Virus record (IMG/VR): IMGVR_UViG_3300042139_000023
Strand: one strand, 5' to 3'
Length of the DNA stretch: 64,000 bases
Origin: a virus
Lineage: Duplodnaviria > Caudoviricetes
Position numbers and translations under genes: made by a program. The notes under the pieces are model-generated. The model saw nothing but the letters and a program-made list of their open reading frames with translations. It did no database searches and was not told the origin of the DNA. Below are positions 2,101-31,402 of this stretch, piece after piece (position 1 is the first letter of the stretch; the number at the start of each line of letters is the position of its first letter).

Positions 2101-2661
2101 GTGGCTCAGACACTGCGCGGGATTCAGATGTTCGACCGGGGCGACCGGGTCGAGATCGGGGAGGGCGAACTGGCCACAGTCGAGCACGACATGGGCGGCG
2201 AGGTCGTCCATGTGCACCCGGACGGGAGCCGGAGCCGGTACCCGCACGACGCCATGCCGGTCGCCCGGGAGGGCGTGAAGCTGACCCGGCAGACCGAGAA
2301 CGGCGAAGAGGTTCAGGTCGAGATCTACTCGAACGGCTCCACGCACACGCTGTACGAGTGCTGCGGATACGACGAGTGCCGGGAGCTGATCCTGGTCAAG
2401 GGTCTCGGGATCGACCGGGCGGAGGCGTTCGCCGGGGACCGGTTCGTGGTCGAGGTCGAGGGTGAGCCGGTACGGATCACGGTCAAGCCGCTCGACGATC
2501 CGTCCTCGTGCATCTGGTGCTACGGGTGCGGCGACTTCCTCGCGCACGGCGAGGGCTGCGAGTGCGAAGACCGGGGCCACAACCCCGAGGCCGACCGGGA
2601 GCCGATGCGCCCGCTGGTCGTGGAGAAGGACGGGCGACTGGAACTGACGCCCTTCAACTGA
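2101..2661 (+). CDS. hypothetical protein with CxxCxD/HxxxC Cys motifs
   Basis: ORF track; tight packing. Confidence 0.7.
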   Translation: MAQTLRGIQMFDRGDRVEIGEGELATVEHDMGGEVVHVHPDGSRSRYPHDAMPVAREGVKLTRQTENGEEVQVEIYSNGSTHTLYECCGYDECRELILVKGLGIDRAEAFAGDRFVVEVEGEPVRITVKPLDDPSSCIWCYGCGDFLAHGEGCECEDRGHNPEADREPMRPLVVEKDGRLELTPFN

Positions 2662-2666
2662 GCGGA

Positions 2667-2730
2667 GACGCCCTAGGGTTCCCGGCCGCGCGCCGGGGGC
2701 CCGGGAGTGTCGCTGATCGGGCGATGCCGG
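2667..2730 (+). repeat. conserved intergenic long hairpin, copy 1 of 3
   Basis: GACGC-CCTA-GGGTTCCCGG..CCGGGGGCCC-GGGA-GTGTC; homologous to copies at 3976 and 4403. Confidence 0.65.
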
Positions 2731-2749
2731 AACGGAGAAGGAGAACGGG

Positions 2750-3340
2750 ATGACCGAGATGGACGTGCTGGAGACGGCGGGCCGCTACCGGGTGCGCCTG
2801 GTGGTTCAGCAGGACTCGCAGGACTGCAACCCCCGGACCGAACAGGACTGCAACCTGACGAACGTGATCACCCCGAAGGGTCAGCGGTACATCGACGTCG
2901 ACAAGGACGGCGGGCCGTTGGCGGAGGGGTGGGAGCGGATCGAGGACCGGTACGTGGACGCGGTCCCCGTCTTCACCCGGTGGGCCAAGATCTTCCACGG
3001 TGCCACGGTCGTCGAGGACCGGCCGCACGACGGTGCCTGGTCGATCTGGTACGTGATGCCGGAGAAGCTGGCCGAGACCACGTGGACCGCCGAGAAGGTC
3101 ATCGAGTCGGAGCAGACCGAGTACCGGCGATGGGCCGAGGGTGAGGTGTACGGCCACATCGTCGAGAAGGACGTGACCCGCATCCCCCGGGACGCCGAGG
3201 ATCGAGACGACCCGGAGCTGGACGACGAGACGCGCGAGTGGGAAGAGGTCGACTCGTGCTGGGGCTACATCGGCCGGGAGTACGCCGAGGAGGCGGCCCG
3301 CGAGGGGTTCGCCCCGTACGCCGAGGAGGCCGGGAAGTGA
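2750..3340 (+). CDS. hypothetical acidic protein (DSCWGYIG motif)
   Basis: ORF track with RBS. Confidence 0.75.
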   Translation: MTEMDVLETAGRYRVRLVVQQDSQDCNPRTEQDCNLTNVITPKGQRYIDVDKDGGPLAEGWERIEDRYVDAVPVFTRWAKIFHGATVVEDRPHDGAWSIWYVMPEKLAETTWTAEKVIESEQTEYRRWAEGEVYGHIVEKDVTRIPRDAEDRDDPELDDETREWEEVDSCWGYIGREYAEEAAREGFAPYAEEAGK

Positions 3341-3645
3341 AGCGGGAGACACGAGAGATCGCCCCGATGACGGTGACCCGGATCGTCCGGGGCAGGCCGC
3401 CGGGGCACATCGGACCGTACTGGTTCGGCTTCGACATCAAGGTGACCGGCCCGGCGGACGGAGCGTACGTGAGCGCCCGCGCCCGCGCCCTGGCCATGAC
3501 CGACGCGCAAGCCCTGTGCAACGAGGTGAACGCGCCGGGCCTGGTGCTCCAGTTCGAGCGGGCCGGTAACTGGGACGACCCGAGACAGTACGAGTGCACG
3601 ATCAGCTTCGGTACGAGCCTTTCCGTGGAGGAGGACCCGCTGTGA
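3337..3645 (+). CDS. hypothetical protein
   Basis: GTGA overlap. Confidence 0.65.
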   Translation: MKRETREIAPMTVTRIVRGRPPGHIGPYWFGFDIKVTGPADGAYVSARARALAMTDAQALCNEVNAPGLVLQFERAGNWDDPRQYECTISFGTSLSVEEDPL

Positions 3646-3968
3646 GCGGTGACAACGTGTGGACCCTGCCCGACGGGACGGAGCTGGTCTACCAGGACGG
3701 CGATCACGTCACGATCGACATCGACCCCGGTTCACCGTCGGCCCTGAGCCTGCCGTTCCTGAGCGGCTACGTGCGGGGGTACGACGCCGTGATCGAGGAC
3801 GGCGGCCCGGCGAAGGTGGCGTACACGCTGTACAACGTCGGGAACAACCCGCTGGTCGGCGTGCGGGAGGACCGGCTGAAGAAGACGGTCAGCCGGTTCG
3901 GCATCGGCCACGGCCGGGGTGCGCACGGGGACGGCAAGGCGTGCCACCTGTGCGGTGCGAATCTCTGA
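3642..3968 (+). CDS. hypothetical protein
   Basis: GTGA overlap. Confidence 0.65.
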   Translation: MSGDNVWTLPDGTELVYQDGDHVTIDIDPGSPSALSLPFLSGYVRGYDAVIEDGGPAKVAYTLYNVGNNPLVGVREDRLKKTVSRFGIGHGRGAHGDGKACHLCGANL

Positions 3969-3975
3969 GCGGGAG

Positions 3976-4032
3976 GCGCCCTAGGGTGACCGGCTGCGGC
4001 CGGTCACCCGGGAGTGCCGCTCGATCGAGCGG
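3976..4032 (+). repeat. conserved intergenic long hairpin, copy 2 of 3
   Basis: GGCGC-CCTA-GGGTGACCGG-CTGCGG-CCGGTCACCC-GGGA-GTGCC. Confidence 0.7.
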
Positions 4033-4047
4033 ACGGAGAGGGAGAAG

Positions 4048-4395
4048 ATGCTGACGAGTGAGGGTCTGGCCAAGGGACGCGCCTGGGTGGCGACGCCGGA
4101 GGAGTACGAGGAGGCGGCGCAGCCGCACGTCCGGCAGCGCAACGAGCGCCGCCTGCGGGGCTTCAACTTCGAGATCATGATCGGTGGCCTATGCCGGGAC
4201 GGGGACTTCTCGTACCCCTACCCGGGCTACTACGGCACGACGGCCCCGGTCGTGGGCCTGCGCCGGGACCAGGCCGAGCACCTGACGGCCGAGCTGCTGA
4301 AGAAGCTGGCCCCTGGCGGCGAACTGCCGACCGACGCGGCCGAGCTGTTGGACTTCGTGTCCACTGTGCTCCGCAACGGCTCCGCCCCTGCCTGA
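4048..4395 (+). CDS. hypothetical protein
   Basis: ORF with RBS. Confidence 0.7.
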   Translation: MLTSEGLAKGRAWVATPEEYEEAAQPHVRQRNERRLRGFNFEIMIGGLCRDGDFSYPYPGYYGTTAPVVGLRRDQAEHLTAELLKKLAPGGELPTDAAELLDFVSTVLRNGSAPA

Positions 4396-4402
4396 CGGGA
4401 GG

Positions 4403-4458
4403 CGCCCCAGGGTTTCCGGCTGCGACCGGAGGCCCGAGAGCGCCGCCCACGGGTGGCG
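4403..4458 (+). repeat. conserved intergenic long hairpin, copy 3 of 3
   Basis: GGCGC-CCCA-GGGTTTCCGG-CTGCGA-CCGGAGGCCC-GAGA-GCGCC. Confidence 0.65.
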
Positions 4459-4482
4459 CAAGTCGGAAGGGAGGTGAGTCGG

Positions 4483-4554
4483 ATGAGCAACGACGACGAG
4501 TGGGAGAAGGCGGGCCGGGAGGCCGAGGAGATCCTGCGGAGGCTGAAGGGCTGA
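4483..4554 (+). CDS. 23-aa micro-ORF MSNDDEWEKAGREAEEILRRLKG
   Basis: Strong GGAGGTGA RBS; below ORF-track cutoff. Confidence 0.55.
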   Translation: MSNDDEWEKAGREAEEILRRLKG

Positions 4555-4620
4555 CCCGCAGGCAGAAGCGCAGCACACCACGTGAGCACAGAGAACTGCA
4601 TCCGCGAGAAGGAGAAGAAC

Positions 4621-4749
4621 GTGACGCAGGAGACGCCCCAGACCCCGCCGGACATGATCAACGTCCCCGTCCCGGCCGACACGCCGCCGCCGGAGGCCAT
4701 CTCGGTCACCCCGGAGAACGCGCAGCAGATGGACGCCGACAAGAAGTAG
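4621..4749 (+). CDS. small Pro/Thr-rich peptide
   Basis: GTG after GGAGAAG; GC3-biased codons. Confidence 0.5.
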   Translation: MTQETPQTPPDMINVPVPADTPPPEAISVTPENAQQMDADKK

Positions 4750-4810
4750 CGGGCCGACGGCGCCGCTCGGGGCGGCCGGGAGACCGGCCGCCCTCCCGGA
4801 AGGGGGAGAC

Positions 4811-5179
4811 ATGCACGAACAGGATGTGTGGCGGGTGCGGTTCACCCGGGAGCACGGGGAGCTGTGGTCGCAGACCCTGGAAGGGCTGATGACCTTCCGG
4901 TACGGGTCCAGCGGGACGTGGGCGGCGCATGCGGCCCTGATCCACTGGACCCGGGCGTGCGGGGTGCCGGGCAGTGCCGACAACTACCCGATGCGGTACC
5001 TGGCCGAAGCCATCCGCATGAAGGACGGTGAGGAGATCGTTGCCGGGAAGGCGACCGCCGTCCGGGACTCCCTGAACGGGAAGTTCCTCAACGAGAACCA
5101 GGTCGACATTCTCCAGTTCACGCCGGAGGGGACGCTGATCCACACCCGGGAGAGCTGGACCGTAGCCGAAAGGCACTGA
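4811..5179 (+). CDS. hypothetical protein
   Basis: ORF with RBS. Confidence 0.7.
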   Translation: MHEQDVWRVRFTREHGELWSQTLEGLMTFRYGSSGTWAAHAALIHWTRACGVPGSADNYPMRYLAEAIRMKDGEEIVAGKATAVRDSLNGKFLNENQVDILQFTPEGTLIHTRESWTVAERH

Positions 5180-5195
5180 AGGAAGGGAGTGGGGC

Positions 5196-5420
5196 ATGGC
5201 TCTCACGCTCACGAAGGAACCGACGCCGGAGATCACCGGCCCGATCACGATCAGCGCCGAGTGGAACCACTCGTGCACGTCGCAGTGCCCGAACCCGTGC
5301 CCGGCGTCGTCCCGGTTGACGCAGCCGGGCGTCACGGCCCGCATCCCGCAGCAGCCGGGGCCGCAGTCGCCCCCGCCGAAGACGCCGAAGGTCCCGCAGC
5401 AGCCGGGCCCCCGGGACTGA
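5196..5420 (+). CDS. Pro-rich small protein with CxxxCxxxC and two PQQPGP repeats
   Basis: ORF track; RBS. Confidence 0.6.
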   Translation: MALTLTKEPTPEITGPITISAEWNHSCTSQCPNPCPASSRLTQPGVTARIPQQPGPQSPPPKTPKVPQQPGPRD

Positions 5421-5447
5421 GACCCGAACGAGGAGAGGGAGAAGATC

Positions 5448-5891
5448 ATGGGCGAGTGGACGATGCACGGCCAGGTGTGGGCCGACGACGGCGACGTGGG
5501 CGGGGACACGCAGATCGGGAAGGCGGCAAGCGTCCGGTTCGTGAACCCGGACTGCCCCGGCGCCCGGGTCACGGTGTACGCCTACGCCTCCGCTCCCGAG
5601 CGCTCGATCGAGGCCAAGGTCGGTTCGATCGAGGTGTTCATGGGCTACGACGCCGACCTGGGCAACCTCGGGATCGAGTCGCAGGTCTGGTTCGAGATCG
5701 ACGACGACGCCGAGGGCGACGCCGACGAGTGGGACCCGACCTGGTCGGAGATCAGGTACGAGTCGCTGGACTCGTACATCGCCCCCGGGCCGGACGAGAA
5801 GCGGGTGGCCGTGGCCGAGGCGGCGGCGCTCGCCTGGGTCCGGGCGTACGACCCCAAGAAATTCATCAACTGGGACGGCAAGCGGTTCTGA
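5448..5891 (+). CDS. hypothetical acidic protein
   Basis: ORF with RBS. Confidence 0.7.
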   Translation: MGEWTMHGQVWADDGDVGGDTQIGKAASVRFVNPDCPGARVTVYAYASAPERSIEAKVGSIEVFMGYDADLGNLGIESQVWFEIDDDAEGDADEWDPTWSEIRYESLDSYIAPGPDEKRVAVAEAAALAWVRAYDPKKFINWDGKRF

Positions 5892-5966
5892 GCCGGTGCG
5901 TTCGGGGCGGCGGGAGCTGTGGGTTCCCGCCGCCCAGTGCACATCGGACGGAAGGAGAGGGAGAGC

Positions 5967-6938
5967 GTGAAGAGGTTCGAGGACGCCGAGAAGGTCACCC
6001 CGCAGCAGCTCAAGGGCATGACCCCGACACAGGTGGACGAGCTGTTCGCCGTCGCCTGGGATCACCGGTACGAGCTGGTGGAAGAGGTGTACGCCGCCTG
6101 GAACGAGGTGCACTACGCCGTCGGTGACCGCCGGGTCAGCACGCAGACGTGGCGCCTGGGTCATCAGGAGGTGCAGGACAAGGCCGCCGGGACCGAGCGG
6201 GGCCGCAAGGCGCTCGACCGGGTGAACCGGGCGAAGGGTTCGGTCGCCGAGCTGGACGGCACCGTGCTGGCCAAGCTGGAAGCCGAGTTCGACAGCCGGG
6301 GCGGATGGTCCCGGGCCTACCTGGTCACCGATGGCCACGTGCACAGCTCGATGCACTGCTCGTCGTGCAACCGGGGCGAGTTCCCGACCCGCTTCTTCTG
6401 GATGATCGACTACTCCGGGAAGAGCATGGCGGAGATCGTCGAGGCCGCTGGGGAACGGGCCTGCACCATCTGCTACCCGGATGCGCCGGTCGCCCGCAAG
6501 GACAAGGGTGAGACGGTGAACGTACCGAAGTCGGTGATGCTGACTTCCGAGGAGATCCAACGCGACGAGGCCAGGGATGCGGAGGCCAAGCGCCGGGCGG
6601 AGAAGAAGGCCAAAGCCGCGCTGAACGCCATCACGCAGCCCGACGGCACTCCCCTGCGGGACGAGGTGGACCGGGACGGCAGGCAGAAGGGCTCGGTCGT
6701 GAAGACCGTGCGCACGGCCCGGACCGAGCTGAAGCGGCAGTGCTGGTACGCGTACGCCTGGGGCGACGACGACGGCGCTCACGAGCGGAACATCCAGCAC
6801 CTGGGCAGGGCCGTGGCCTGGAAGGAGAACGGCCTGGCGATCGGGGACGAGCCGACCGCCGAACAGATCGAAGCGGTGATCAAGCCGCTGCGGGACAAGG
6901 CCGTGAAGGAAGTCGACAAGGCCCGAGCAGAGGGCTGA
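5967..6938 (+). CDS. hypothetical protein with HCSSC and CTICYPDAP Zn-binding motifs
   Basis: GTG after GAGAGGGAGAG; motif pair recalled from uncharacterised actinophage proteins. Confidence 0.75.
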   Translation: MKRFEDAEKVTPQQLKGMTPTQVDELFAVAWDHRYELVEEVYAAWNEVHYAVGDRRVSTQTWRLGHQEVQDKAAGTERGRKALDRVNRAKGSVAELDGTVLAKLEAEFDSRGGWSRAYLVTDGHVHSSMHCSSCNRGEFPTRFFWMIDYSGKSMAEIVEAAGERACTICYPDAPVARKDKGETVNVPKSVMLTSEEIQRDEARDAEAKRRAEKKAKAALNAITQPDGTPLRDEVDRDGRQKGSVVKTVRTARTELKRQCWYAYAWGDDDGAHERNIQHLGRAVAWKENGLAIGDEPTAEQIEAVIKPLRDKAVKEVDKARAEG

Positions 6939-6952
6939 AGGGGAGCGAGAAG

Positions 6953-7826: not shown

Positions 7827-7841
7827 ACAACTGGAACTTCA

Positions 7842-7860: not shown

Positions 7861-7902
7861 TCGAGGGCCCCGGGAGAACCGGGGCCCGGGAGGAGAGACG
7901 GG

Positions 7903-8250: not shown

Positions 8251-8261
8251 GGAGATCCGGG

Positions 8262-8573
8262 ATGGCTGCTGGACTGACCCGCGAGACCACGCACTACATC
8301 GTCCATTCCACGGTCGTCGACCCGGGACCGAACTCCACCTTCGGCACCTCTCCCCCGTACTCGGGTGAGCGGGCGCTGGAGCGGGCCGTCAAGGCGGCCC
8401 ATCAGGAGTTGCGGGGGCGGCGCCGGGCGTTCGTGACGGCCCGAGACGACGCAAGCCGGATCCTCGCCGTGATCCCGGTCGTGGACTACCCGGTTTTCGG
8501 GGACACGCACGTCCCCGAGCATGCGCAGGACGCCATCACGGCCCTCTTCGAGGGGCTGGACTGGACGATCTGA
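8262..8573 (+). CDS. hypothetical protein
   Basis: ORF track. Confidence 0.65.
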   Translation: MAAGLTRETTHYIVHSTVVDPGPNSTFGTSPPYSGERALERAVKAAHQELRGRRRAFVTARDDASRILAVIPVVDYPVFGDTHVPEHAQDAITALFEGLDWTI

Positions 8574-8644
8574 CCCGGACGAAACCGGGCCCCTGGGAAG
8601 GGCTCCCGGTAGGCGGAACAGGACCGCCCTGACGAGTCCCGTCA
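8571..8644 (+). ncRNA. type II hammerhead ribozyme
   Basis: GGAC-GAAA-CCGGG..CCCGG-TA (GTA site 8609-8611)-GGCGG loop CCGCC-CTGACGA-GTCC; complete core and three stems. Confidence 0.9.
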
Positions 8645-8660
8645 GCACGGAGAGGAGAAG

Positions 8661-9005: not shown

Positions 9006-9359
9006 ATGCCGGTGAGCTACGCCTTCAAGAAGGACGACGGGACCGACCAGGACCCGGCCACCGACCTGAGTCCGGCACAGCAGGCGTTCCTGGCCCTGAG
9101 CGAGATGGGGATCGGGATCCCCCGGCTGGACCGCAGCACCCTGGACGAATTCGTACGCCGCGCCGACCTGTTGCAGGCGTACGTCGGCATCGTGTGGCGC
9201 AACGGTGACGGGACGCCCCGGATCTTCACCCGAGCCGACTTCGTCGAGCTGCTGCCCGGTGCCCGTACCAACTGGACGGCCCGTAGCAAGCGGGACTTCG
9301 ACCAGGCCATGAAGAAGGAGATCGACGCGTACTGGAGCAGCGTCGACAGCCGGAAGTGA
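9006..9359 (+). CDS. hypothetical protein, paralog of 17815..18150
   Basis: Shared DEFVRRADL motif. Confidence 0.75.
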   Translation: MPVSYAFKKDDGTDQDPATDLSPAQQAFLALSEMGIGIPRLDRSTLDEFVRRADLLQAYVGIVWRNGDGTPRIFTRADFVELLPGARTNWTARSKRDFDQAMKKEIDAYWSSVDSRK

Positions 9360-9368
9360 GGGACGCCC

Positions 9369-9671
9369 ATGGTGGCGGACGAGAAGGGTGACGAGTACGA
9401 GGAGACGGCGATCGGCTATGCCATCGGTGTCCTCACGTACATGCAGAACGGCGGGAAGCTGTCGAGCATCGAGGCGACCGCCTCGGAGATCGTCCGGCTG
9501 GCCGGTCGGGAGCTGGCACAGAAGATGCCCGGCCCGGAGAAGGCCCGGGTGCTGATGGAGTCGGTCGAGGAGATGCGGCTCCGGCACAACAACCTGAACG
9601 CCGACGCGGTGTTCGAGGACATGATGGCGCAGGCGAGGAATGCCGGGCGCCTTCGGAGTGAGGGGAAGTAG
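9369..9671 (+). CDS. hypothetical protein
   Basis: ORF track. Confidence 0.7.
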   Translation: MVADEKGDEYEETAIGYAIGVLTYMQNGGKLSSIEATASEIVRLAGRELAQKMPGPEKARVLMESVEEMRLRHNNLNADAVFEDMMAQARNAGRLRSEGK

Positions 9672-13131: not shown

Positions 13132-13206
13132 GCCGGTCGACTTCCGGGGAGCACGGGCTGCGGCCCGTGCCCCTCGGTGGACCATCGGAACGGAGAGTGA
13201 GAAGAG

Positions 13207-14384: not shown

Positions 14385-14414
14385 GCCGATCCGGCCGCAC
14401 CTGGCCGGATACTG

Positions 14415-14462
14415 GGGGCCCGCTTGACGGCGGGCCCCTTCGCTGTACGATGGCCTAGGTCA
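14415..14462 (+). promoter_or_regulatory. sigma70-type promoter TTGACG-16-TACGAT plus operator TGGCCTAGGTCA; -35 in loop of 9-bp hairpin
   Basis: Direct reading. Confidence 0.7.
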
Positions 14463-17032: not shown

Positions 17033-17352
17033 GCACCGAACGGAGCGCCGTCACACTGGACGGCGGAACGGTGATCGGCGAGATGGAGCCCTGGGACTCC
17101 GACCCCGCCCTCTTCGGCGGATGGCTGGCCGAAGGCTCGGGGGTCTCCTCGCTCGTGGCCGAAGGGATGGATCACGACCGCACGAAGCTGGAGATCGTCC
17201 GGCTGTTCCTGGTGCGCGAGATCAAGGTTCAGGAAAGGGCCGACCAGTCCAGTTCCGAGGGCGTGGAGCGCAACCGGCTGATCCAGGAGGGCTTCCGCAT
17301 GCAGAAGGCCCTCACGTCCAAGATCCTCCGAGAGCAAGGGGAGGTGGCTTGA
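17029..17352 (+). CDS. hypothetical protein
   Basis: GTGA overlap. Confidence 0.65.
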   Translation: MSTERSAVTLDGGTVIGEMEPWDSDPALFGGWLAEGSGVSSLVAEGMDHDRTKLEIVRLFLVREIKVQERADQSSSEGVERNRLIQEGFRMQKALTSKILREQGEVA

Positions 17353-17732
17353 TGATGGTCGGCGACCCCGGGACGGTGCAGCTCCCGTCATCGGGGGTGA
17401 ACGTCGGCCGGGTCGAACAGTGGGACGGTGACTCGACCACCTGGGACGGCTGGGCCGACATCCCCGGTGCGGCAACCGAGGAACTGGTCTGCAACGGCGG
17501 CAGCCGCAACTGGTGCATCTACATGGTGGTCAAGCGCTACCAGAAGCACCTGATCGACGAGCTGGCCGGGGCCACGTACTGGAGCGAGAACCCGCAGAAC
17601 GACCGGGACTTCACGGAGAAGGCCCGGATGATCAGCGAGTGCTTCGACGTGATGCGCAACGCGCTGCACGAGCACTACCAGGAGATCCGCAGGGAGCAGG
17701 CTCGGGTTCGCCGGGAACTGCATCGGAGCTGA
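17352..17732 (+). CDS. hypothetical protein
   Basis: TGATG coupling. Confidence 0.65.
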   Translation: MMVGDPGTVQLPSSGVNVGRVEQWDGDSTTWDGWADIPGAATEELVCNGGSRNWCIYMVVKRYQKHLIDELAGATYWSENPQNDRDFTEKARMISECFDVMRNALHEHYQEIRREQARVRRELHRS

Positions 17733-17814
17733 ACGGCTTCGGCTCGGCGGTGCACGGGCTCTGGTCCGTGCACCTGCCGTACTGCCGCCGGGCAGGACAT
17801 CGGAAGGGGAAGAG

Positions 17815-18150
17815 ATGCGAGCGTACTTCGAGACGGCCAGCGGCGAGACGGTTCCGCTGCCGGACCCGATGAGCCCCGAGCAGTCGGCCATCGTGTACCT
17901 CACGGGAGGGACCGGCATCCGCCGGATCGACAACGAGACGATCGACGAGTTCGTGCGCCGGGCCGACCTGTACGACACGTACATCGGCGGGATCGACCTG
18001 CGGGACATCGAGACCGGCAAGAGGGTTCCGATCACCCGGCAGATCATCACCGAGGCGATGGCCGGTCACCCGGCGCTCTGGACGAACGCCGGGCTCGTCA
18101 CGCCCGAGGCGTTCGACCGCATGATCCGCGTCGCCAAGTCGGCGCTGTAG
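17815..18150 (+). CDS. hypothetical protein, paralog of 9006..9359
   Basis: DEFVRRADL motif. Confidence 0.75.
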   Translation: MRAYFETASGETVPLPDPMSPEQSAIVYLTGGTGIRRIDNETIDEFVRRADLYDTYIGGIDLRDIETGKRVPITRQIITEAMAGHPALWTNAGLVTPEAFDRMIRVAKSAL

Positions 18151-20892: not shown

Positions 20893-20936
20893 TCTACCAC
20901 ACCACGAGAACACCGGAAACAGGAGAAGAACTCATC

Positions 20937-21173: not shown

Positions 21174-21230
21174 GAAGGGGCTCCGGTTGCGACCGGAGCC
21201 CCTTCTGCGTATCGTCTTTGACCTAGGCCA
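21174..21230 (+). promoter_or_regulatory. terminator-like 13-bp hairpin with loop TTGCGA as -35, 17-nt spacer, -10 TATCGT, operator TGACCTAGGCCA
   Basis: GAAGGGGCTCCGG-TTGCGA-CCGGAGCCCCTTC. Confidence 0.7.
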
Positions 21231-21249
21231 TTCGGAGAGGGAGAGAGAC

Positions 21250-21564
21250 ATGAGGGAAGCGCCGCAGCACAAGGAGCACTCGGCCAGGATCGTGATGAAG
21301 GAGAACCTGGAGTCCTTCGTCACGGGAGTCATGGGCAAGGACTTCCGCCTCAAGACGGGTGACGGAGACCAGGAGCTGGGGGCGCGGATCGCCTTCGACT
21401 TCCGTCTGTGCACGCCGGACATCGGTGGCGCCATGGAGATCTCCGACTGGCTGGAGAGCGACGGACCGCAGCCCAGCAACGAGACGGTCCTGAACAACCT
21501 GGTCGTCACCGGCCGCATGGAAGGCGGCATCTACGTCGTCATAGCCCCGGCGAGCGAGTGGTGA
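21250..21564 (+). CDS. hypothetical protein
   Basis: ATG after RBS. Confidence 0.65.
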   Translation: MREAPQHKEHSARIVMKENLESFVTGVMGKDFRLKTGDGDQELGARIAFDFRLCTPDIGGAMEISDWLESDGPQPSNETVLNNLVVTGRMEGGIYVVIAPASEW

Positions 21565-25684: not shown

Positions 25685-25706
25685 CCCGTGCGCGGAAGGA
25701 GAGGAA

Positions 25707-26201: not shown

Positions 26202-26554
26202 TGAAGCTGTTCGGCAAGGAAGTTCCCGGCCCGAAGCCCCGCCTCTCCGGCGAGACGCAGCCGGTGTACGACGCCGGAGCCAAGAACGCCTTCGTCGCCG
26301 TACTCCAGCGGGCGCTCGACGTACAGATCCCGGGACGCCTGGGAGCCAGCAGCTACACCGACCCGGCGACCGCACTGGAGAACGCCGTCCAGGTCGCTTC
26401 GTCGTACTGCAACGACGAACTCCTCTCCCGGATGAACAACTTCCGGGACGCCGTCCTCGACGCCTCCCGGGGCGAAGGCGGAGAGCAGGAAGTCAACAGG
26501 GCCCGGGAGATCTTCACCAAGGGATGCCGGGAAGCACTCGGCAACGACCAGTAG
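26201..26554 (+). CDS. hypothetical protein
   Basis: TGATG coupling. Confidence 0.65.
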   Translation: MKLFGKEVPGPKPRLSGETQPVYDAGAKNAFVAVLQRALDVQIPGRLGASSYTDPATALENAVQVASSYCNDELLSRMNNFRDAVLDASRGEGGEQEVNRAREIFTKGCREALGNDQ

Positions 26555-26575
26555 GACCGGAAAGGGAGAAGAACA

Positions 26576-27091
26576 GTGCGACTCATGCACCAGCACGACC
26601 TGGGCGGCCCCGGCCGCGTGATCGTCATGGCCGGAGACCTCCCCGTCACCATCACGGTCGACGAGCGGGCCGAGTACCGATCGGTCGATGTCATGGCCGA
26701 CCGGGGGCTGGCCGCCTGGGCGGGGCCCATCGGCCCGGGAGGGGTCTCCTTCGGCGTCGAGGTCGGCAGGCCCAGCCTGATCAACACTCTGCGCGACAAG
26801 CTGGGTCTGCGCATGGGGACCTCGGTCTCCGGCGGGGGCTCGGTCGTGTCGTCCGGGCGGGACTCGATCGCGGCCGGAGGGAGCATCGTCAACTGCGCCA
26901 CCGGCCGGGGTGCGAAGGTAACAGTGGACGGCGTGGAGCAGAGGCTGCCGGAGATCGGCGTGCACCTGACCGCTCCCCCGCTGTGCACCTTCGAGATCCG
27001 CTCGCACGGCGGCATCACGGTGCTTCACGGCGACACCGAGTTGACCGTCCAGGCGGCCGAGGAGCGGGGCCTGCTGGCGGTGGCCCGATGA
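26576..27091 (+). CDS. hypothetical protein
   Basis: ORF with RBS. Confidence 0.65.
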   Translation: MRLMHQHDLGGPGRVIVMAGDLPVTITVDERAEYRSVDVMADRGLAAWAGPIGPGGVSFGVEVGRPSLINTLRDKLGLRMGTSVSGGGSVVSSGRDSIAAGGSIVNCATGRGAKVTVDGVEQRLPEIGVHLTAPPLCTFEIRSHGGITVLHGDTELTVQAAEERGLLAVAR

Positions 27092-27306
27092 TCTCGGCGG
27101 TCGGCGACTTCCTGGTGGAGCGCTTCCCGGGCGTCGGCCCGAACCGCAAGGTGGCACGGATCGTCAGCGACCAGCCGGAGGAGGGGCGCCTGCGGGTGTC
27201 CCGGACCGTCCAGGCGGGCGGCAGGCGCTACACCGTGGCCTTCCATTTCCCGCCGGGCATCCGGCAGGGCCGGGCCATCGCGTGGCCGAAGGAGAGGGAG
27301 AGCTGA
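27088..27306 (+). CDS. hypothetical protein
   Basis: ATGA overlap. Confidence 0.55.
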   Translation: MISAVGDFLVERFPGVGPNRKVARIVSDQPEEGRLRVSRTVQAGGRRYTVAFHFPPGIRQGRAIAWPKERES

Positions 27307-27734
27307 TGGGTCTGCGGCAAGAGGCGGAAGCGCTGTTCTTCGGGACCGGAGTCCAGGAGCTGTACCCGCACTGGCAGTCGGAGTACTCGCCGGGCCCGCA
27401 GTTCCAGCCGCACGGCGAGTGGGCGCGCGGTGAAGCACCCGACATCTGGGCCTACAAGATCCGGATCACCGATCCTCTCAACTGTGAACGCCTGATGGAT
27501 CGGATCATCACGTACTCGATCCTCTACAGCACCGCCGAGATGATCAGCGGGGACAAGGTCGACACCGAGAAACCGTTCCACCCGGTGGACGCCGAGACCG
27601 TTCGGGCCTGCGAGATGTGGGTCTACTCGGACGAACTCGGCATGTTCGACCCCCACACGCTGGACCAGGTTCTCCAGGTGGCCGTGTTCGGCGGCCTGCT
27701 GCACCCCCACTTCGAGCCCCGCAACCGGGGCTGA
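27306..27734 (+). CDS. hypothetical protein
   Basis: TGATG coupling. Confidence 0.7.
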   Translation: MGLRQEAEALFFGTGVQELYPHWQSEYSPGPQFQPHGEWARGEAPDIWAYKIRITDPLNCERLMDRIITYSILYSTAEMISGDKVDTEKPFHPVDAETVRACEMWVYSDELGMFDPHTLDQVLQVAVFGGLLHPHFEPRNRG

Positions 27735-27752
27735 CGGAAAGCGAGAAGAGAC

Positions 27753-28082
27753 GTGAAGCACGAGTTCGCCATCGACTACGCCGGGCTCACCCCGCAGCAG
27801 AAGATCCTGATCCTGGAGGAGATGGGCTTCAAGGAGATCCCGCCTCCCGAGCATGGCACGAACTGTCTGTCCCGGCAGGGCAGCGGCATGCGGTGCGACT
27901 GCCTTCAGGGTGTGACGACCTGGGGAGCGCCGCTCGACGTGAAGAAGTACCTGGGCGAGACGCACGAGGAGCGCGCGGAGTTCGCTGCCCGGCGCCAGAT
28001 GTACCTGAACGACGGCGAGGGTGAGAACCCCGGACCGTGGTGGGCCCACCTGGAGAAGAACGCCCCCCGCAACCGGCACTGA
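27753..28082 (+). CDS. hypothetical protein
   Basis: ORF track. Confidence 0.65.
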   Translation: MKHEFAIDYAGLTPQQKILILEEMGFKEIPPPEHGTNCLSRQGSGMRCDCLQGVTTWGAPLDVKKYLGETHEERAEFAARRQMYLNDGEGENPGPWWAHLEKNAPRNRH

Positions 28083-28092
28083 GGGAGTAGCC

Positions 28093-28431
28093 GTGACCGA
28101 CATCCGGGACATCTACACAGGCCGCCCGATCCGGAACGACCTTCTGGACAACGGCCATGCGCCGAAGTGCACCTGGGCTCCCGAGCAGGGAACGCTGTTC
28201 CCCAAGGGGATGCTCCCCAGCGGCTGGCCGGGTGACCGGCAGGGGCACGAGGCGGCACACGCCCTGTCGGCCCTGCTCGGGTCCGAGGGTATCCGGACCG
28301 ACATCGTGTTCTACCCGAACGGGCAGGTCGACCTGTACTGCCCCGGCGGGAAGCTGGAACTGTCCATGGGTGAGGCCATGAAGCTGGCCCGCCTGCTGGA
28401 CAGGGAGAAGCCGGACCGGCGTCCGGCCTGA
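28093..28431 (+). CDS. hypothetical protein
   Basis: GTG after GGGAG. Confidence 0.65.
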   Translation: MTDIRDIYTGRPIRNDLLDNGHAPKCTWAPEQGTLFPKGMLPSGWPGDRQGHEAAHALSALLGSEGIRTDIVFYPNGQVDLYCPGGKLELSMGEAMKLARLLDREKPDRRPA

Positions 28432-28446
28432 CGGAGAGGGAGAAGC

Positions 28447-28749
28447 ATGGCGAAGATCGACGTGAACGAGGTCCAGGGCCTGTTCCGGGTCGGCCTGGCG
28501 GCCGACCAGAAGGGCAACGAGGTCTACGTGCTGGAGATCCTGGGGATCCCGGTTCTGTACGCCGACGCCCACGAGTTCGAGGCTGGACACCAGGACGCCG
28601 AGGACTGGCAGGAGACCTTCGAGACGCGGCTGGCCCGGATGCTGGCCAAGGTGCTGACGGAGGGCTACGACCACGACTTCGTGAAGTGGCGCACCGAGTC
28701 CCCGACCGGCCGCGAGGTGTACCGCCTCGGCCCGTTCGGAGGTGAGTGA
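28447..28749 (+). CDS. hypothetical protein
   Basis: ORF with RBS. Confidence 0.7.
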   Translation: MAKIDVNEVQGLFRVGLAADQKGNEVYVLEILGIPVLYADAHEFEAGHQDAEDWQETFETRLARMLAKVLTEGYDHDFVKWRTESPTGREVYRLGPFGGE

Positions 28750-29021
28750 TGGACGCCATCCGGGTCGGGAAGACCGAGGAGTCCGGCCAGCCTCTGATCG
28801 TCGTCGAACTGTTCGGCGTTCCGCTGGCCAGCTCGACTCACAAGGTCGCCGAGTACGACGCGGATCCGGAAGGGTTCACGAAGTGGTGGCGGGAGTACTT
28901 CGCCCGTCAGATCGTCAGCATGCTGGCGGAGGAACTGCACCAGGAGCGGCGGGTCACCGGCTGGCTGATGGCCACCCGGCTGTCACCGGTACCTCCGGGT
29001 CTGCCGGTGGAGGAGGCGTGA
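28746..29021 (+). CDS. hypothetical protein
   Basis: ORF track. Confidence 0.65.
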   Translation: MMDAIRVGKTEESGQPLIVVELFGVPLASSTHKVAEYDADPEGFTKWWREYFARQIVSMLAEELHQERRVTGWLMATRLSPVPPGLPVEEA

Positions 29022-29299
29022 ACTCCGGACTGTTCGAAGCGGGGGTCGTCGAGCTGCCGAACGGCGGGCGCATCACCGTCGTGGAGTTCATGGGGCAGCC
29101 GATCGCCGAGGGCCCGGCCGAGGCACTGGACGGCGAGGGGGCGGTCGAGGAGATCCAGGAAGCCTTCTGCGCCGCTCTCGTCGCCACCCTGTCCCTGGTG
29201 ATGGGGAGCCAGGAGTTCGGCCGGTACGCGCCCAGGGAGTGGACGTACTGGCATCCGATGGCCCCGCCCCTGGCGAGGCTTCCGAAGGGAGAAGAGTGA
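29018..29299 (+). CDS. hypothetical protein
   Basis: GTGA overlap. Confidence 0.6.
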   Translation: MNSGLFEAGVVELPNGGRITVVEFMGQPIAEGPAEALDGEGAVEEIQEAFCAALVATLSLVMGSQEFGRYAPREWTYWHPMAPPLARLPKGEE

Positions 29300-29547
29300 T
29301 GAAGGGCATGGACGGGCTGATCGTCACGGCGGTCAACCGGATGCACGAGGACGAGCTGGAGATGCGGCGCCGCTGGGCCGAGCGCATCCGGGAGGAGTTC
29401 GGGAAGTACCACGAGCACTCCGGCGGCGGTGAGTGCGGCGCCTGCGGGGCGATCCAGGGGGCGAACTGGATGGACCCGGACTACGTCAAGGACGGCCCGG
29501 TCGCGGAGCCGTTCGGGACCTGGAAGGACCGCCAGCCCCAGGTGTGA
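29299..29547 (+). CDS. hypothetical protein
   Basis: TGATG coupling. Confidence 0.65.
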   Translation: MKGMDGLIVTAVNRMHEDELEMRRRWAERIREEFGKYHEHSGGGECGACGAIQGANWMDPDYVKDGPVAEPFGTWKDRQPQV

Positions 29548-29617
29548 CTGACCCGAGGCCGAAACGCCGCACCCAGCGGCGTCGCGCAGTGAGACTGCGC
29601 CTGACGATGGCCGTCAG
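29548..29617 (+). ncRNA. type II hammerhead ribozyme, variant with extra U between A9 and G10.1
   Basis: CTGAC-ccga-GGCC-GAAA-CGCCGC loop GCGGCG-TC (GTC site 29581-29583)-GCGCAG loop CTGCGC-CTGACGA-T-GGCC-GTCAG. Confidence 0.85.
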
Positions 29618-29635
29618 TGGAGGGAGGGGAGAGTA

Positions 29636-29842
29636 GTGAGGAAGCGGGATTCGACGGCCGACGAGGTCTACGACTGGGCGGTGAAGCAGAAGCTGCCCGC
29701 GCCGGACGCATTCGCCATGCGGTACTGGGATCTCGCCGGGGCGACGGTCAGGCTGGGTCTGGCTGCCAGGCTCTGGCGACGGCAGGTCAGGAACGGCACC
29801 ACGGGATTCCCACTGGTGGACGGGGATCGAACGGACGCGTAA
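29636..29842 (+). CDS. hypothetical protein downstream of hammerhead 2
   Basis: GTG after GGAGGGAGGGGGAG. Confidence 0.6.
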   Translation: MRKRDSTADEVYDWAVKQKLPAPDAFAMRYWDLAGATVRLGLAARLWRRQVRNGTTGFPLVDGDRTDA

Positions 29843-29890
29843 GCAGTCCGGAAGACAGGCGAAGCGGTTCGGAAGGGATGAGGAAGAGGC

Positions 29891-30367
29891 ATGGAATTCG
29901 TGGAACCGAAGCGCGGTGACCGGATCGCCAGCGGCGGCCGGATCACGACGATCGACAGCTTCAGCGAGGACGACGGGACGTTCCTGCGCAGCGGGCAGTG
30001 GGTCGACATCTCGGACTTCGAGAAGAACGAGGACGGAGTGTGGGTTCGCACCCATTCGCCCCGTACGTACGAGATCGGTGAGCCGTACAAAGTCAGCTCC
30101 CTGCGCAAGGGTGTCGCCGTCGTCCGGCCCGCCGTATTCGCCGGAGGAGTGAGCGGCAAGGACAAGGTGGTCACCACCTCGCCGTGCTGCCAGCTCTACA
30201 TGCGGCGCCTGGACTTCGGCGACCTCACGTCCGACCTGGCGGCCCGGCAGGGGGGCTGGTCGGAGCAGTGCAACTCCTGCAAGGCGTACTACAAGGTCAT
30301 GCTCATGTTCACCGGCAGCCCCCGGCTCGGCCTGTACGGCGTGCGCTGGGAATCCCTGGGGTTCTGA
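29891..30367 (+). CDS. hypothetical protein
   Basis: ORF with RBS. Confidence 0.7.
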   Translation: MEFVEPKRGDRIASGGRITTIDSFSEDDGTFLRSGQWVDISDFEKNEDGVWVRTHSPRTYEIGEPYKVSSLRKGVAVVRPAVFAGGVSGKDKVVTTSPCCQLYMRRLDFGDLTSDLAARQGGWSEQCNSCKAYYKVMLMFTGSPRLGLYGVRWESLGF

Positions 30368-30370
30368 ACC

Positions 30371-30856
30371 ATGGCAAACATGAACAACGTCACGGACTCC
30401 ACGCGCATCCGGGAAGCGGAGCGTCTGGGTGAAAAGCTCCTCCCCGACATGTCGTTCGAGGATCGCCTGAAGGTAGCCGAGGTCGCCCTGTCGAACTACG
30501 GGCGCGTGGCCCAGACCTACCCGGTGGATCACGAGCGGGTGCGTACGGACATCTCGCGCGAGCTGCGAATGCTGGCCAACGGTGGCGAGCGATGGGCGGG
30601 CCGGGCGCTGCTCGTCTACGTCTGCAAGGTCTGCTTCGACAGCCGGGCTGAAATGTACGAACCGGTCGGGCACCGTGCGGTGTGCGGGGTGACCAGTCTC
30701 CACGAGCCGATTCAGGGCCTGATGTACCACCGGGCCGCCCGGGTGCAGTACTACGGCGGGTCGTGGGATCTGAACGTGTACATCGCCGAGTGCGGCATCA
30801 CCAACCTGGTCAACGGCAGCAGGGGTTCGGTCCCCTGTCCCGAGTGCTTCCGATAG
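30371..30856 (+). CDS. hypothetical protein with Cys motifs
   Basis: ORF track. Confidence 0.7.
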   Translation: MANMNNVTDSTRIREAERLGEKLLPDMSFEDRLKVAEVALSNYGRVAQTYPVDHERVRTDISRELRMLANGGERWAGRALLVYVCKVCFDSRAEMYEPVGHRAVCGVTSLHEPIQGLMYHRAARVQYYGGSWDLNVYIAECGITNLVNGSRGSVPCPECFR

Positions 30857-30868
30857 GGGTGAATCGAC

Positions 30869-31402
30869 ATGAAGCCGACAGAACTGCAAGAAGCGGAGAT
30901 CTTCGACGTTGACGGCACGCTGTGCAACGTCACCAGCGTCCGCCACTACGTCACGCCGCCGAACCGGGACTTCCACTCCTTCCACATGGCTTCCGCCTTC
31001 TGCCCGCCGCACGAGGAGGTGGTCGAGCGGGTGCACGAGGCCAAGGCCAAGGGGCGAGCCGCCATCGTGGTGACCGCCCGCATGGCCCGGTACCGGACCC
31101 TCACCCGGAAGTGGCTTCAGAGCTGCGGGATCCCGTTCGACAGCCTCTGGATGCGAGCGAACGACGACTTCCGCAAGGACGCGATCGTGAAGCGGGAGAT
31201 CCTGGCCAAGATCCGAGCCAACGGATTCGTCGTGATGAAGGCGCACGACGACAACCCGGCCGTGATCGAGGTGTGGGAAGACGAGGGAATCGAGACCCAG
31301 ATCGTGCCCGGATGGGACGATCAGTTCACCGGCCTCCTGCTGCCGCAGGACGGCCTGACCGTGGTCCGTGAGACGGGCCACGCCGGAGAGGGGAAGCAGT
31401 GA
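30869..31402 (+). CDS. polynucleotide kinase-type 3'-phosphatase (HAD), stand-alone domain
   Basis: FDVDGTL, IVVTAR, MRANDDFRKDAIVK, DDN motifs as in the T4 Pnk phosphatase domain. Confidence 0.85.
   Translation: MKPTELQEAEIFDVDGTLCNVTSVRHYVTPPNRDFHSFHMASAFCPPHEEVVERVHEAKAKGRAAIVVTARMARYRTLTRKWLQSCGIPFDSLWMRANDDFRKDAIVKREILAKIRANGFVVMKAHDDNPAVIEVWEDEGIETQIVPGWDDQFTGLLLPQDGLTVVRETGHAGEGKQ

What the first reader, a model, noticed from the sequence alone, without database searches (positions are those of the whole stretch)
2660..31402. Possible RNA-punctuation system for the early arm: ribozymes, long hairpins and a 3'-phosphatase
The ~36-kb co-directional arm has few promoters, but many intergenic gaps hold RNA structures: two hammerheads, three homologous long hairpins, and other UNCG/GNRA-capped stems (1208, 4763, 5907, 7866, 13146, 17749). 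A stand-alone Pnk-type HAD phosphatase lies about 1.3 kb past hammerhead 2. Established: hammerhead cleavage leaves a 2',3'-cyclic phosphate, and T4 Pnk phosphatase removes such ends. Inference: the phage may cut long early transcripts into separately stabilised units with ribozymes plus host RNase III, as T7 does with RNase III sites, and may heal the ends with its own enzyme. The phosphatase could equally serve tRNA repair.
Basis: inference. Interest (0 to 1): 0.8.

Follow-up and report, generated by a model that had tools for sequence, protein, structure and literature searches.

The report
Ribozymes and hairpins between phage genes
Two self-cutting hammerhead RNAs and a conserved family of long hairpins do sit between the small genes of this soil Streptomyces phage, but nothing links the nearby Pnk-type phosphatase to them, so this is a new example of a known phenomenon, not a new system.

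Summary
The window is a cluster-BM-like Streptomyces phage (88% to Frankenweenie). Its + arm (1 to ~38 kb) is about 100 co-directional small genes.

- **Hammerheads:** there are exactly two type II hammerheads, at 8570-8645 and 29548-29617. Each runs from the upstream stop codon to the next ribosome-binding site. The catalytic cores are intact and stems I and III covary across relatives.
- **Long hairpins:** three homologous 58-nt, ~22-bp hairpins (2660, 3968, 4394) are conserved in the relatives on the same strand, with compensatory changes and fixed G-U pairs.
- **Other hairpins:** 12 of 20 mid-sized gaps hold a stem of 9 bp or more, against 6% of coding windows.
- **Phosphatase:** gene 30869-31402 is a stand-alone HAD_PNKP phosphatase.

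Ribozyme processing of phage polycistronic mRNA was proposed in 2011. The phosphatase link fails a co-occurrence test. Only 4 of 21 complete viral genomes with this hammerhead subtype carry HAD_PNKP. Actinophages outside the clade with the stand-alone enzyme show no convincing type II hammerhead. One hammerhead of the relatives is simply missing here. A conserved CCTAGG palindrome in six gaps suggests internal regulated promoters. No RNA-end data exist.

Verdict: new members of known kinds, moderate interest.

The parts
8570..8645 (+). Hammerhead 1 (type II). Order: 5' CUGAC, stem II GGAC/GUCC, GAAA, stem III with an extended loop, GUA (predicted cut after 8611), stem I GGCGG/CCGCC, core CUGACGA, 3' GUCAG. 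The UGA at 8571-8573 is the stop codon of gene 8262-8573.
   Evidence: 30.2 bits, E 5e-6; homologues in four relatives
29548..29617 (+). Hammerhead 2 (type II). Stem II is GGCC/GGCC with one extra U after A9. Stem III has 7 bp. The triplet is GUC (predicted cut after 29583). Stem I has 7 bp. The core is CUGACGA. A 5' CUGAC / 3' GUCAG helix closes the structure.
   Evidence: (Rfam 33.8 bits); covariation
2660..2718 (+). Long hairpin 1 (58-nt family, about 22 bp, conserved A bulges, G-U pairs). It starts at the stop codon of gene 2101-2661.
3968..4026 (+). Long hairpin 2, same family, UGCG loop
4394..4451 (+). Long hairpin 3, same family. Together with hairpin 2 it flanks the single gene 4048-4395.
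21174..21205 (+). 14-bp UGCG-capped hairpin that matches only the apical part of the long-hairpin model (27 bits). A CCTAGG palindrome follows at 21219-21230.
1208..1235 (+). 12-bp hairpin, UGCG loop
4769..4794 (+). 11-bp hairpin, GAGA loop
5905..5935 (+). 14-bp hairpin; the loop is not UNCG or GNRA
7865..7887 (+). 9-bp all-GC hairpin, GAGAA loop
13146..13177 (+). Hairpin with UGCG loop (contiguous core 13151-13170)
14414..14439 (+). 11-bp hairpin, directly followed by a promoter-like TTGACG-16-TACGAT and the palindrome at 14451-14462
17749..17774 (+). 11-bp hairpin, UCUG loop
24360..24383 (+). 10-bp hairpin, UGCG loop
34255..34282 (+). UUCG-capped hairpin with a U-rich tail. It is the one gap hairpin in the arm that I saw with the shape of a canonical intrinsic terminator.
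30869..31402 (+). Stand-alone Pnk-type HAD phosphatase, 177 aa, with DVDGT (motif I) and HDDN (motif IV)
20893..20936 (+). Gap homologous to the site of the third hammerhead of Frankenweenie, Kela and JustBecause. There is no hammerhead and no hairpin here.
14451..14462 (.). One of six copies in the arm of the palindrome TGRCCTAGGYCA. The others are at 1185, 7842, 21219, 24716 and 25659. It is a candidate operator or promoter mark.

Best explanation
The + arm of this cluster-BM-like Streptomyces phage carries several independent kinds of cis-acting RNA element in its intergenic gaps. It does not carry one integrated system.

(1) Two type II hammerhead ribozymes. They most likely cut the polycistronic mRNA between the upstream stop codon and the next ribosome-binding site, after 8611 and after 29583. 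The upstream product would end in the stem III hairpin with a 2',3'-cyclic phosphate. The downstream product would begin with a 5'-OH and the stem I hairpin. The downstream product can then fold its CUGACG core strand onto the conserved 3' CGUCAG. The cuts are inferred from an intact core and covariation. Cleavage itself has not been shown.

(2) Three copies of a conserved 58-nt hairpin of about two helical turns. It acts as RNA on the + strand. It is most likely a processing site for a host double-strand RNase or a 3'-end stabiliser, in the manner of the phage T7 early sites (inferred).

(3) Shorter GC-rich capped hairpins. They are most likely tail-less terminators, attenuators or 3'-end protectors. 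Several are followed by a palindromic operator/promoter module, so the arm is probably a chain of units of about 1 to 9 kb (inferred).

The HAD_PNKP protein is a true Pnk-type 3'-phosphatase. It has no demonstrable tie to the ribozymes. Its substrate could be RNA ends made by host nucleases, or DNA or nucleotide 3'-phosphates, and remains open.
For: Hammerheads:
- The core CUGACGA, the GAAA and the A15.1-U16.1 pair are invariant.
- H17 is A, U or C across homologues and never G.
- In 6 homologues of hammerhead 2, 100% of cells are paired. Eight pairs show changes on both sides. No shuffle of 500 reaches the observed covariation score.
- Stem II covaries between the subfamilies: GGAC/GUCC, GGCC/GGCC and GACC/GGUC.
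- The same subtype, including its flanks, occurs in Burkholderia phages. It also occurs in 64 IMG/VR stretches.
- An extra nucleotide after A9 is a known natural variant, and U at that position was the most active form tested (PMC3705267).

Long hairpins:
- They score 76-81 bits on + against 24-34 on -.
- The four relatives have 2-4 copies each, on the same strand at homologous sites.
- 92.6% of cells are paired, 7 pairs have double changes, and G-U pairs are fixed at three positions.

Hairpin enrichment: 60% of gaps against 6% of coding windows.

Operator/promoter motif: 10 hits against 0.28 expected, conserved in Frankenweenie. A TTGACG-16-TACGAT abuts one copy.

No link to the phosphatase:
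- It is absent from most genomes that carry this hammerhead.
- It is present in phages without a convincing type II hammerhead.

The relatives have no RtcB, no AAA_33 kinase, no RNase III and no 2H phosphoesterase. An RNA ligase domain is found only in Kela.
Against: - No RNA ends were observed. One low-depth metatranscriptome contig (29495-29723) runs across the hammerhead 2 cut site. This means either uncut RNA or carried-over DNA.
- Rfam scores are below the gathering score.
- The stem I loop to 3' tail pseudoknot, common in type II hammerheads (PMC3088659), is not evident here.
- In the nearest-neighbour model, a hairpin that sequesters the core is nearly as stable as the active fold: -31.2 against -34.0 kcal/mol, and -33.1 against -35.0. 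Activity could therefore be low or conditional.
- RNase III cutting of the long hairpins is untested.
- The co-occurrence test covers only one hammerhead subtype and one Pfam model. It cannot rule out a lineage-specific use of the phosphatase.
- Within cluster BM, the order hammerhead 2, then three or four genes, then the phosphatase is conserved.
Confidence: 0.6

Rival explanations
1. Hammerheads and RNase III-type hairpins cut long early transcripts into stabilised units. The phage's own stand-alone Pnk-type phosphatase removes the 2',3'-cyclic phosphate from the ribozyme products.
For: - All the parts exist.
- The phosphatase lies 1.25 kb downstream of hammerhead 2, on the same strand. This order is kept in Frankenweenie, Kela and Satis.
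- The closest solved relatives are the T4 Pnkp phosphatase domain and Pnkp1 of an RNA-repair complex. From my own knowledge, T4 Pnkp acts on 2',3'-cyclic phosphate ends.
- In one unrelated 125-kb viral contig, a full-length Pnkp lies about 4 kb from a hammerhead of this subtype.
Against: - 17 of 21 complete genomes with this hammerhead subtype lack HAD_PNKP, including genomes of 199-260 kb.
- BcepGomr and Bm1 lack it.
- Homologues occur in 1480 phage records, mostly in groups where I know of no hammerheads.
- E3, Basquiat and GTE6 have the stand-alone form but no convincing type II hammerhead.
- The conserved gene order within one clade is a single evolutionary observation.
- The relatives have no ligase or kinase that would make healing productive, except one ligase domain in Kela.
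- Removing a terminal cyclic phosphate would expose the end to 3' exonucleases and tailing rather than protect it (inference).
Confidence: 0.07
2. The hammerheads are horizontally spreading, largely neutral passengers of intergenic gaps. They have no role in the expression of this phage's genes.
For: - They vary by presence or absence. The third hammerhead of the relatives is missing here, with no replacement structure.
- Satis has two copies around a gene that is not homologous to the gene after hammerhead 2 here.
- Nearly identical flanks occur in phages of Actinobacteria and Proteobacteria.
Against: - Hammerheads 1 and 2 are kept at homologous gaps in five diverged phages. Compensatory changes maintain the fold, and the core is invariant.
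- They always sit precisely between a stop codon and the next RBS, on the coding strand.
Confidence: 0.13
3. The long hairpins are not nuclease sites. They are binding sites for a phage RNA-binding regulator, or cis-acting antitermination RNAs that let RNA polymerase read through the many downstream hairpins.
For: - Sequence is conserved inside the stems and at the unpaired A residues, beyond what pairing alone needs. Many pairs never vary.
- The copies cluster in the promoter-proximal part of the arm, with a further copy upstream in the relatives.
- The relatives encode no RNase III of their own.
Against: - No candidate binding protein was identified.
- The hairpins sit after stop codons between genes, as the T7 sites do.
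- Two of them flank a single gene.
Confidence: 0.2

Closest known systems
Type II hammerhead ribozymes in phage and prophage intergenic regions (Perreault et al. 2011, PMC3088659; Rfam RF02276)
   Same: The catalytic core is the same, and so is the permuted topology with stem II open. Several copies per genome flank single genes or short gene blocks in co-directional arrays. That paper showed cleavage of such polycistronic RNAs in vitro and in vivo for other examples.
   Different: - The scores are below the Rfam gathering score.
- No stem I loop to 3' tail pseudoknot is evident.
- Stem II is instead extended by a CUGAC/GUCAG helix. Its 5' strand usually holds the upstream stop codon.
- The 3' strand can alternatively pair with the core.
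- Hammerhead 2 has one extra U after A9.
- The two genome announcements I checked for cluster BM phages (Satis/JustBecause and Frankenweenie) do not mention ribozymes.
RNase III processing sites of the phage T7 early mRNA (R0.3 to R1.3).
   Same: They are intercistronic, irregular hairpins of about two helical turns, repeated along one co-directional early transcript. In T7, the upstream product keeps a protective 3' hairpin.
   Different: Cleavage has not been shown here. The host is Streptomyces. The helix has single-nucleotide bulges rather than a large internal loop. Only three copies lie in the window.
T4 polynucleotide kinase-phosphatase, phosphatase domain (PDB 5uj0, 1ltq), and Pnkp1 (4xrp)
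   Same: It matches the HAD_PNKP family. The DxDGT nucleophile motif and the DD motif align with the T4 enzyme.
   Different: There is no kinase domain (177 aa). The closest relatives have no kinase, and an RNA ligase domain was found only in Kela. Similar stand-alone forms are common in actinophages. Streptomyces phage Stanimal has the full enzyme next to an RNA ligase and tRNA genes.
Rho-independent terminators without poly-U tails in the early region of actinophage phiC31 (Ingham, Hunter and Smith 1995).
   Same: They are GC-rich hairpins without U tracts, between early genes of a Streptomyces phage.
   Different: This is a lead only. Termination at the hairpins of this window has not been tested.

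Membership tests
Hammerhead ribozyme, type II (RF02276) | Conserved core C3 U4 G5 A6 N7 G8 A9, and G12 A13 A14 with the A15.1-U16.1 pair | tested here: met
   CUGACGA and GAAA are present in both copies and invariant in all homologues
Hammerhead ribozyme, type II (RF02276) | The cleavage-site nucleotide H17 is not G | tested here: met
   GUA in hammerhead 1 and GUC in hammerhead 2. It is A, U or C in the relatives and never G
Hammerhead ribozyme, type II (RF02276) | Three helices around the core, supported by covariation, with stem II open | tested here: met
   100% of cells paired. Eight pairs with double changes in stems I and III. Stem II covaries between subfamilies.
Hammerhead ribozyme, type II (RF02276) | Score at or above the Rfam gathering score | tested here: not met
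   Hammerhead 2 scores 33.8 bits against 37. Hammerhead 1 is not reported at E up to 10. My own model gives 30.2 bits, E 5e-6, for hammerhead 1.
Hammerhead ribozyme, type II (RF02276) | [quoted passage not shown] | tested here: inconclusive
   I saw no complementarity between the stem I loop and the tail. The GUCAG tail is kept in 46 of 63 subtype members. It can pair with the 5' CUGAC or with the core.
Hammerhead ribozyme, type II (RF02276) | Self-cleavage | not testable with these tools
   The RNA contigs are uninformative
HAD_PNKP (PF25109), Pnk-type 3'-phosphatase | Profile match over the curated cut-off | tested here: met
   67.6 bits against a cut-off of 27.6, E 1.7e-18, covering profile positions 2-135 of 143. 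PHROG 415 at 1e-39.
HAD_PNKP (PF25109), Pnk-type 3'-phosphatase | HAD catalytic motifs (DxDxT nucleophile, acidic DD motif) | tested here: met
   DVDGT at residues 13-17. HDDN aligns with the DD motif of T4 Pnkp.
Bifunctional Pnkp / tRNA-repair module (kinase + phosphatase + ligase) | A P-loop kinase domain and a partner RNA ligase | tested here: not met
   The protein has 177 aa and no kinase domain. Frankenweenie, Kela and Satis have no AAA_33 and no RtcB. RNA_ligase is found only in Kela. The rest of the window's own genome could not be searched.
HAD_PNKP (PF25109), Pnk-type 3'-phosphatase | Activity on 2',3'-cyclic phosphate RNA ends | not testable with these tools
   -
T7-type RNase III processing site | An intercistronic hairpin of about 20 bp or more, conserved as RNA | tested here: met
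   22 modelled pairs, 92.6% of cells paired, fixed G-U pairs, strand-specific scores
T7-type RNase III processing site | Cleavage by RNase III | not testable with these tools
   The relatives encode no RNase III of their own, so a host enzyme would be needed
Canonical intrinsic terminator | A GC-rich stem followed by a U tract | tested here: not met
   The consensus scan lists none of the gap hairpins, and its counts equal those of the shuffles. Only 34255-34282 has a U-rich tail.

The most novel reading that the evidence does not exclude
In cluster-BM Streptomyces phages, the stand-alone Pnk-type phosphatase has been recruited to act on the 2',3'-cyclic phosphate ends left by the hammerheads. 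Ribozymes, two-turn hairpins and an end-modifying enzyme would then form one phage-encoded mRNA maturation system.

A second, more modest reading is also not excluded. In this widespread hammerhead subtype, which starts at the upstream stop codon, the conserved 3' GUCAG tail may work as a switch. It would pair with the 5' CUGAC in the active fold. It would pair with the catalytic core when a terminating ribosome covers the 5' strand, or after the cut.
Probability: 0.07. Interest if true: 0.75.

Novelty: new member of a known kind. Interest (0 to 1): 0.35.

Why it matters
The biological role of bacterial and phage hammerheads is still unproven, 15 years after they were found in prophages (PMC3088659, PMC6765202). 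Cluster-BM Streptomyces phages are cultivable on laboratory hosts. They carry three conserved hammerheads each, and the phage of this window lacks one of them naturally. They also have a conserved two-turn hairpin family in the same arm. That makes them a practical system for asking whether ribozyme cuts set different stabilities or translation rates for neighbouring genes. The negative result also matters. The appealing ribozyme-phosphatase link should not be carried forward without biochemical evidence.

Tried and rejected
- The Rfam gathering-threshold scan gave only tRNAs.
- No whole genome is held for the window, so genome-wide searches for ligase or kinase genes used relatives only.
- RNAalifold on the plain MAFFT alignment of all nine hammerheads recovered only the core-sequestering hairpin, because the stems were misaligned. 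I therefore wrote the structure by hand on a clean subfamily alignment.
- Metatranscriptome contigs from two soil runs cover the arm thinly (depth 2-5). One contig bridges the hammerhead 2 cut site. DNA carry-over cannot be excluded, and contigs cannot show RNA ends, so they give no evidence either way.
- I tested whether the UGA inside the 5' CUGAC ends an upstream reading frame. It does in 22 of the 26 IMG/VR members that have the 5' CUGAC. The test is weak, because long open frames are common in all frames of GC-rich DNA. It holds in 9 of the 12 annotated or mapped cases.
- I looked by eye for a stem I loop to tail pseudoknot and found none.
- I asked whether hammerhead 2 always precedes the same gene. 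It does in the window, Frankenweenie and Kela (55-61% identity). The Satis gene flanked by two hammerheads is not clearly homologous.
- The first inverted-repeat scan failed on a parameter limit. I replaced it with my own scan.

Full report
**What the window is.** The DNA is about 67% G+C. Its closest record is Streptomyces phage Frankenweenie: 88% identity over 90% of a 6-kb query. Kela, JustBecause, Satis, Kradal, EhyElimayoE and Quantum follow. These are cluster BM phages of 184-200 kb with prolate heads and 1-kb terminal repeats (PMC6687918, PMC10652959). The window is not one of those records. It is found in soil and rhizosphere metagenomes of many studies.

The window's + strand is the record's - strand. 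A GC3-based gene map gives about 100 small co-directional genes from 1 to ~38 kb, with one minus-strand ORF. The arm that follows runs the other way and holds 11 tRNA genes. In Frankenweenie the homologous arm starts near the right genome end. Almost all of it is annotated as hypothetical, apart from a phosphatase, an ADP-ribosyltransferase and a helix-turn-helix protein. That the arm is "early" is an inference from this layout. It has not been shown.

**Hammerheads.**
- *Detection.* At the gathering threshold Rfam reports none. With the permissive threshold, Hammerhead_II appears at 29557-29619 with 33.8 bits against 37. The permuted core pattern occurs twice, both times in gaps on the + strand.
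- *Layout.* Both elements share one layout. In order it is: 5' CUGAC, a short internal loop, a 4-bp stem II and GAAA. Then come the stem III hairpin, the U-H cut site and the stem I hairpin. It ends with CUGACGA, the other strand of stem II and 3' GUCAG.
- *Covariation.* Six homologues of hammerhead 2 from five phages pair in every cell. Eight pairs in stems I and III have changes on both sides. Sliding the partners by one to three columns destroys the signal. Stem II covaries between subfamilies. H17 is A, U or C.
- *Number.* A covariance model built from these sequences finds exactly two hits in the window. It finds three in each of four relatives.
- *Variation.* The third hammerhead lies in Frankenweenie, Kela and JustBecause at the gap homologous to window 20893-20936. 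Here that gap holds 44 unrelated, unstructured bases. Satis has two copies around one small gene.
- *Core variant.* The extra U after A9 in hammerhead 2 is a known tolerated variant. U was the most active base there in a viroid hammerhead (PMC3705267).

**The subtype is widespread.** The hammerhead 2 region matches Burkholderia phages BcepGomr and Bm1 at about 79%, with identical flanks. An exact-pattern scan of IMG/VR found 47 stretches. A scan without the 3' tail found 64. When the tail is not required, 46 of 63 members still have GUCAG directly after stem II.

That tail can pair with the 5' CUGAC where it exists (26 of 46 members). It can also pair with CUGAC(G) of the catalytic core. The two folds are nearly isoenergetic: -34.0 against -31.2 kcal/mol for hammerhead 2, and -35.0 against -33.1 for hammerhead 1.

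In 9 of the 12 annotated or mapped cases, the UGA inside the 5' CUGAC is the stop codon of the upstream gene. In the other three, the stop codon lies within two bases of it. Two consequences follow, both inferred. First, a terminating ribosome would cover the 5' strand. Second, after the cut the downstream product could refold its core strand into a hairpin. That would release the upstream product and give the new 5' end two adjacent hairpins just before the RBS.

**Long hairpins.** Direct-repeat search and gap folding show three homologous elements at 2660, 3968 and 4394.
- A second covariance model scores them at 76-81 bits on the + strand and 24-34 bits on the - strand.
- The relatives have two to four copies each, on the same strand at homologous sites, plus one further upstream of the region the window covers.
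- Across 19 distinct sequences, 92.6% of cells pair. Seven pairs change on both sides. Three positions keep G-U pairs, which would be A-C mismatches on the other strand. Three of those 19 rows are opposite-strand hits, which lowers the figures.
- The element therefore works as RNA. It has about 22 pairs, conserved single-A bulges, and a base that includes the upstream stop codon.
- Hairpins 2 and 3 flank a single gene.

**Other hairpins.** Three have true UNCG or GNRA tetraloops, one has a GAGAA pentaloop and two have other loops. Twelve of 20 gaps of 40-140 nt hold a contiguous stem of 9 bp or more, against 6% of length-matched coding windows. Almost none has a U tract. The exception is 34255-34282, near the end of the arm.

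**Promoters.** The sigma-70 consensus scan finds few sites. However, the palindrome TGRCCTAGGYCA occurs 10 times against 0.28 expected. Six copies lie in gaps of the arm, at 1185, 7842, 14451, 21219, 24716 and 25659. They are conserved in Frankenweenie. They sit beside -10-like hexamers, and several come just after a hairpin. Earlier notes of this scan, made on other windows of the same genome, read this palindrome as the operator of a phage GntR-type repressor on about 15 promoters. I checked only the enrichment and the context. If those notes are right, the arm is a chain of units of about 1 to 9 kb. That weakens the premise of very long transcripts.

**Phosphatase.** The 177-aa product of 30869-31402 matches HAD_PNKP at E 1.7e-18 and has the DVDGT and DD motifs. 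Its best solved relatives are the T4 Pnkp phosphatase domain and Pnkp1. It has no kinase domain. Frankenweenie, Kela and Satis have no AAA_33 kinase, RtcB, RNase III or 2H phosphoesterase. An RNA ligase domain is found only in Kela. So "stand-alone, Pnk-type" is correct.

**Test of the link.**
- HAD_PNKP is present in the three BM relatives tested and absent from BcepGomr and Bm1.
- Of 34 IMG/VR records with this hammerhead subtype, 7 carry it. Of the 21 that are at least 90% complete, 4 do. By protein size and score, 3 of those 4 look like the window's own clade.
- Homologues of the protein occur in 1480 phage records.
- Stand-alone forms occur in Rhodococcus phage E3, Mycobacterium phage Basquiat and Gordonia phage GTE6. 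These genomes give no type II hammerhead hit, or only a weak one of 18 bits.
- Streptomyces phage Stanimal has the full enzyme beside an RNA ligase and tRNA genes, which is the classical repair layout.

The distribution therefore gives no support for a functional dependence. The sample is small, it covers one hammerhead type, and it cannot exclude a lineage-specific use.

**How it most likely works.** See the best explanation. These steps are shown by sequence analysis:
- the fold, the conservation and the placement of the ribozymes and long hairpins;
- the family membership of the phosphatase;
- the lack of co-distribution.

These steps are inferred:
- self-cleavage;
- the fate of the products;
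- the nuclease or factor that recognises the long hairpins;
- termination at the short hairpins;
- promoter activity at the palindromes.

**Comparison and novelty.** Several hammerheads flanking single genes in prophage arrays, and their cleavage of polycistronic RNA, were described in 2011 (PMC3088659). A 2019 review lists processing into transcripts of different stability as a suggested but unproven role (PMC6765202). The ribozymes here are unannotated new members with a distinctive closing helix. The hairpin family resembles the T7 RNase III sites in form only. The phosphatase is an ordinary member of a large phage family.

**Limits.**
- The gene map is my own.
- The rest of this phage's genome could not be searched.
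- No RNA-end data exist.

Noticed in passing
window 1185, 7842, 14451, 21219, 24716, 25659 (12 nt each): The palindrome TGRCCTAGGYCA is strongly over-represented: 10 hits against 0.28 expected. It lies in intergenic gaps beside -10-like hexamers and is conserved in Frankenweenie. It is probably an operator or promoter mark that divides the arm into units.
   Followed up: partly
window 20893-20936 versus L017:1501-1573 (-): Frankenweenie, Kela and JustBecause have a third hammerhead at this homologous gap. The window has 44 unrelated, unstructured bases instead.
   Followed up: yes
window 21250-21564: This gene has no counterpart at the same place in Frankenweenie. The alignment jumps from window 21246 to 21561. 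It is an inserted or lost small gene right after a hairpin-plus-palindrome module.
   Followed up: no
window 8629-8645 and 29601-29617; IMG/VR loci L047-L110: The 3' tail GUCAG follows stem II in 46 of 63 members of this hammerhead subtype, even where the 5' CUGAC partner is missing. It can form a 6-bp hairpin with the catalytic core strand. That hairpin is nearly as stable as the active fold.
   Followed up: partly
window 8571-8573; homologues in L002, L006, L007, L004, L005, L003: The stop codon of the upstream gene is the UGA inside the 5' CUGAC of the hammerhead in 9 of 12 annotated or mapped cases. In the other three it lies within two bases of it.
   Followed up: partly
L005:2659-2729 and L005:2971-3040 (Satis): Two hammerheads of the same subtype flank one 72-aa gene. 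That gene is not clearly homologous to the gene after hammerhead 2 in the window.
   Followed up: partly
window 9012-9671 and 17352-18150: Two pairs of paralogous small genes lie within the arm. DNA repeats of 81 nt and 43 nt show 73-77% identity (9108/17908 and 9535/17614).
   Followed up: no
window 34255-34282: A UUCG-capped hairpin with a U-rich tail. It is the one canonical-looking intrinsic terminator I saw in the + arm, about 4 kb before the arm ends.
   Followed up: no
window 51496-54493 (-): A cluster of 11 tRNA genes on the opposite arm, syntenic with Frankenweenie. The region has lower G+C (0.56).
   Followed up: no
window 4484-4556: A small ORF of about 23 codons, with a strong RBS, lies directly after long hairpin 3. 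Frankenweenie has a short gene annotated in the corresponding region.
   Followed up: no
IMG/VR contig of L088 (124,744 bp): A full-length Pnkp (332-aa open frame, 174 bits) lies about 4 kb from a hammerhead of this subtype in a phage contig outside the BM clade. A 134-kb contig with a similar hammerhead (L091) has no HAD_PNKP.
   Followed up: no
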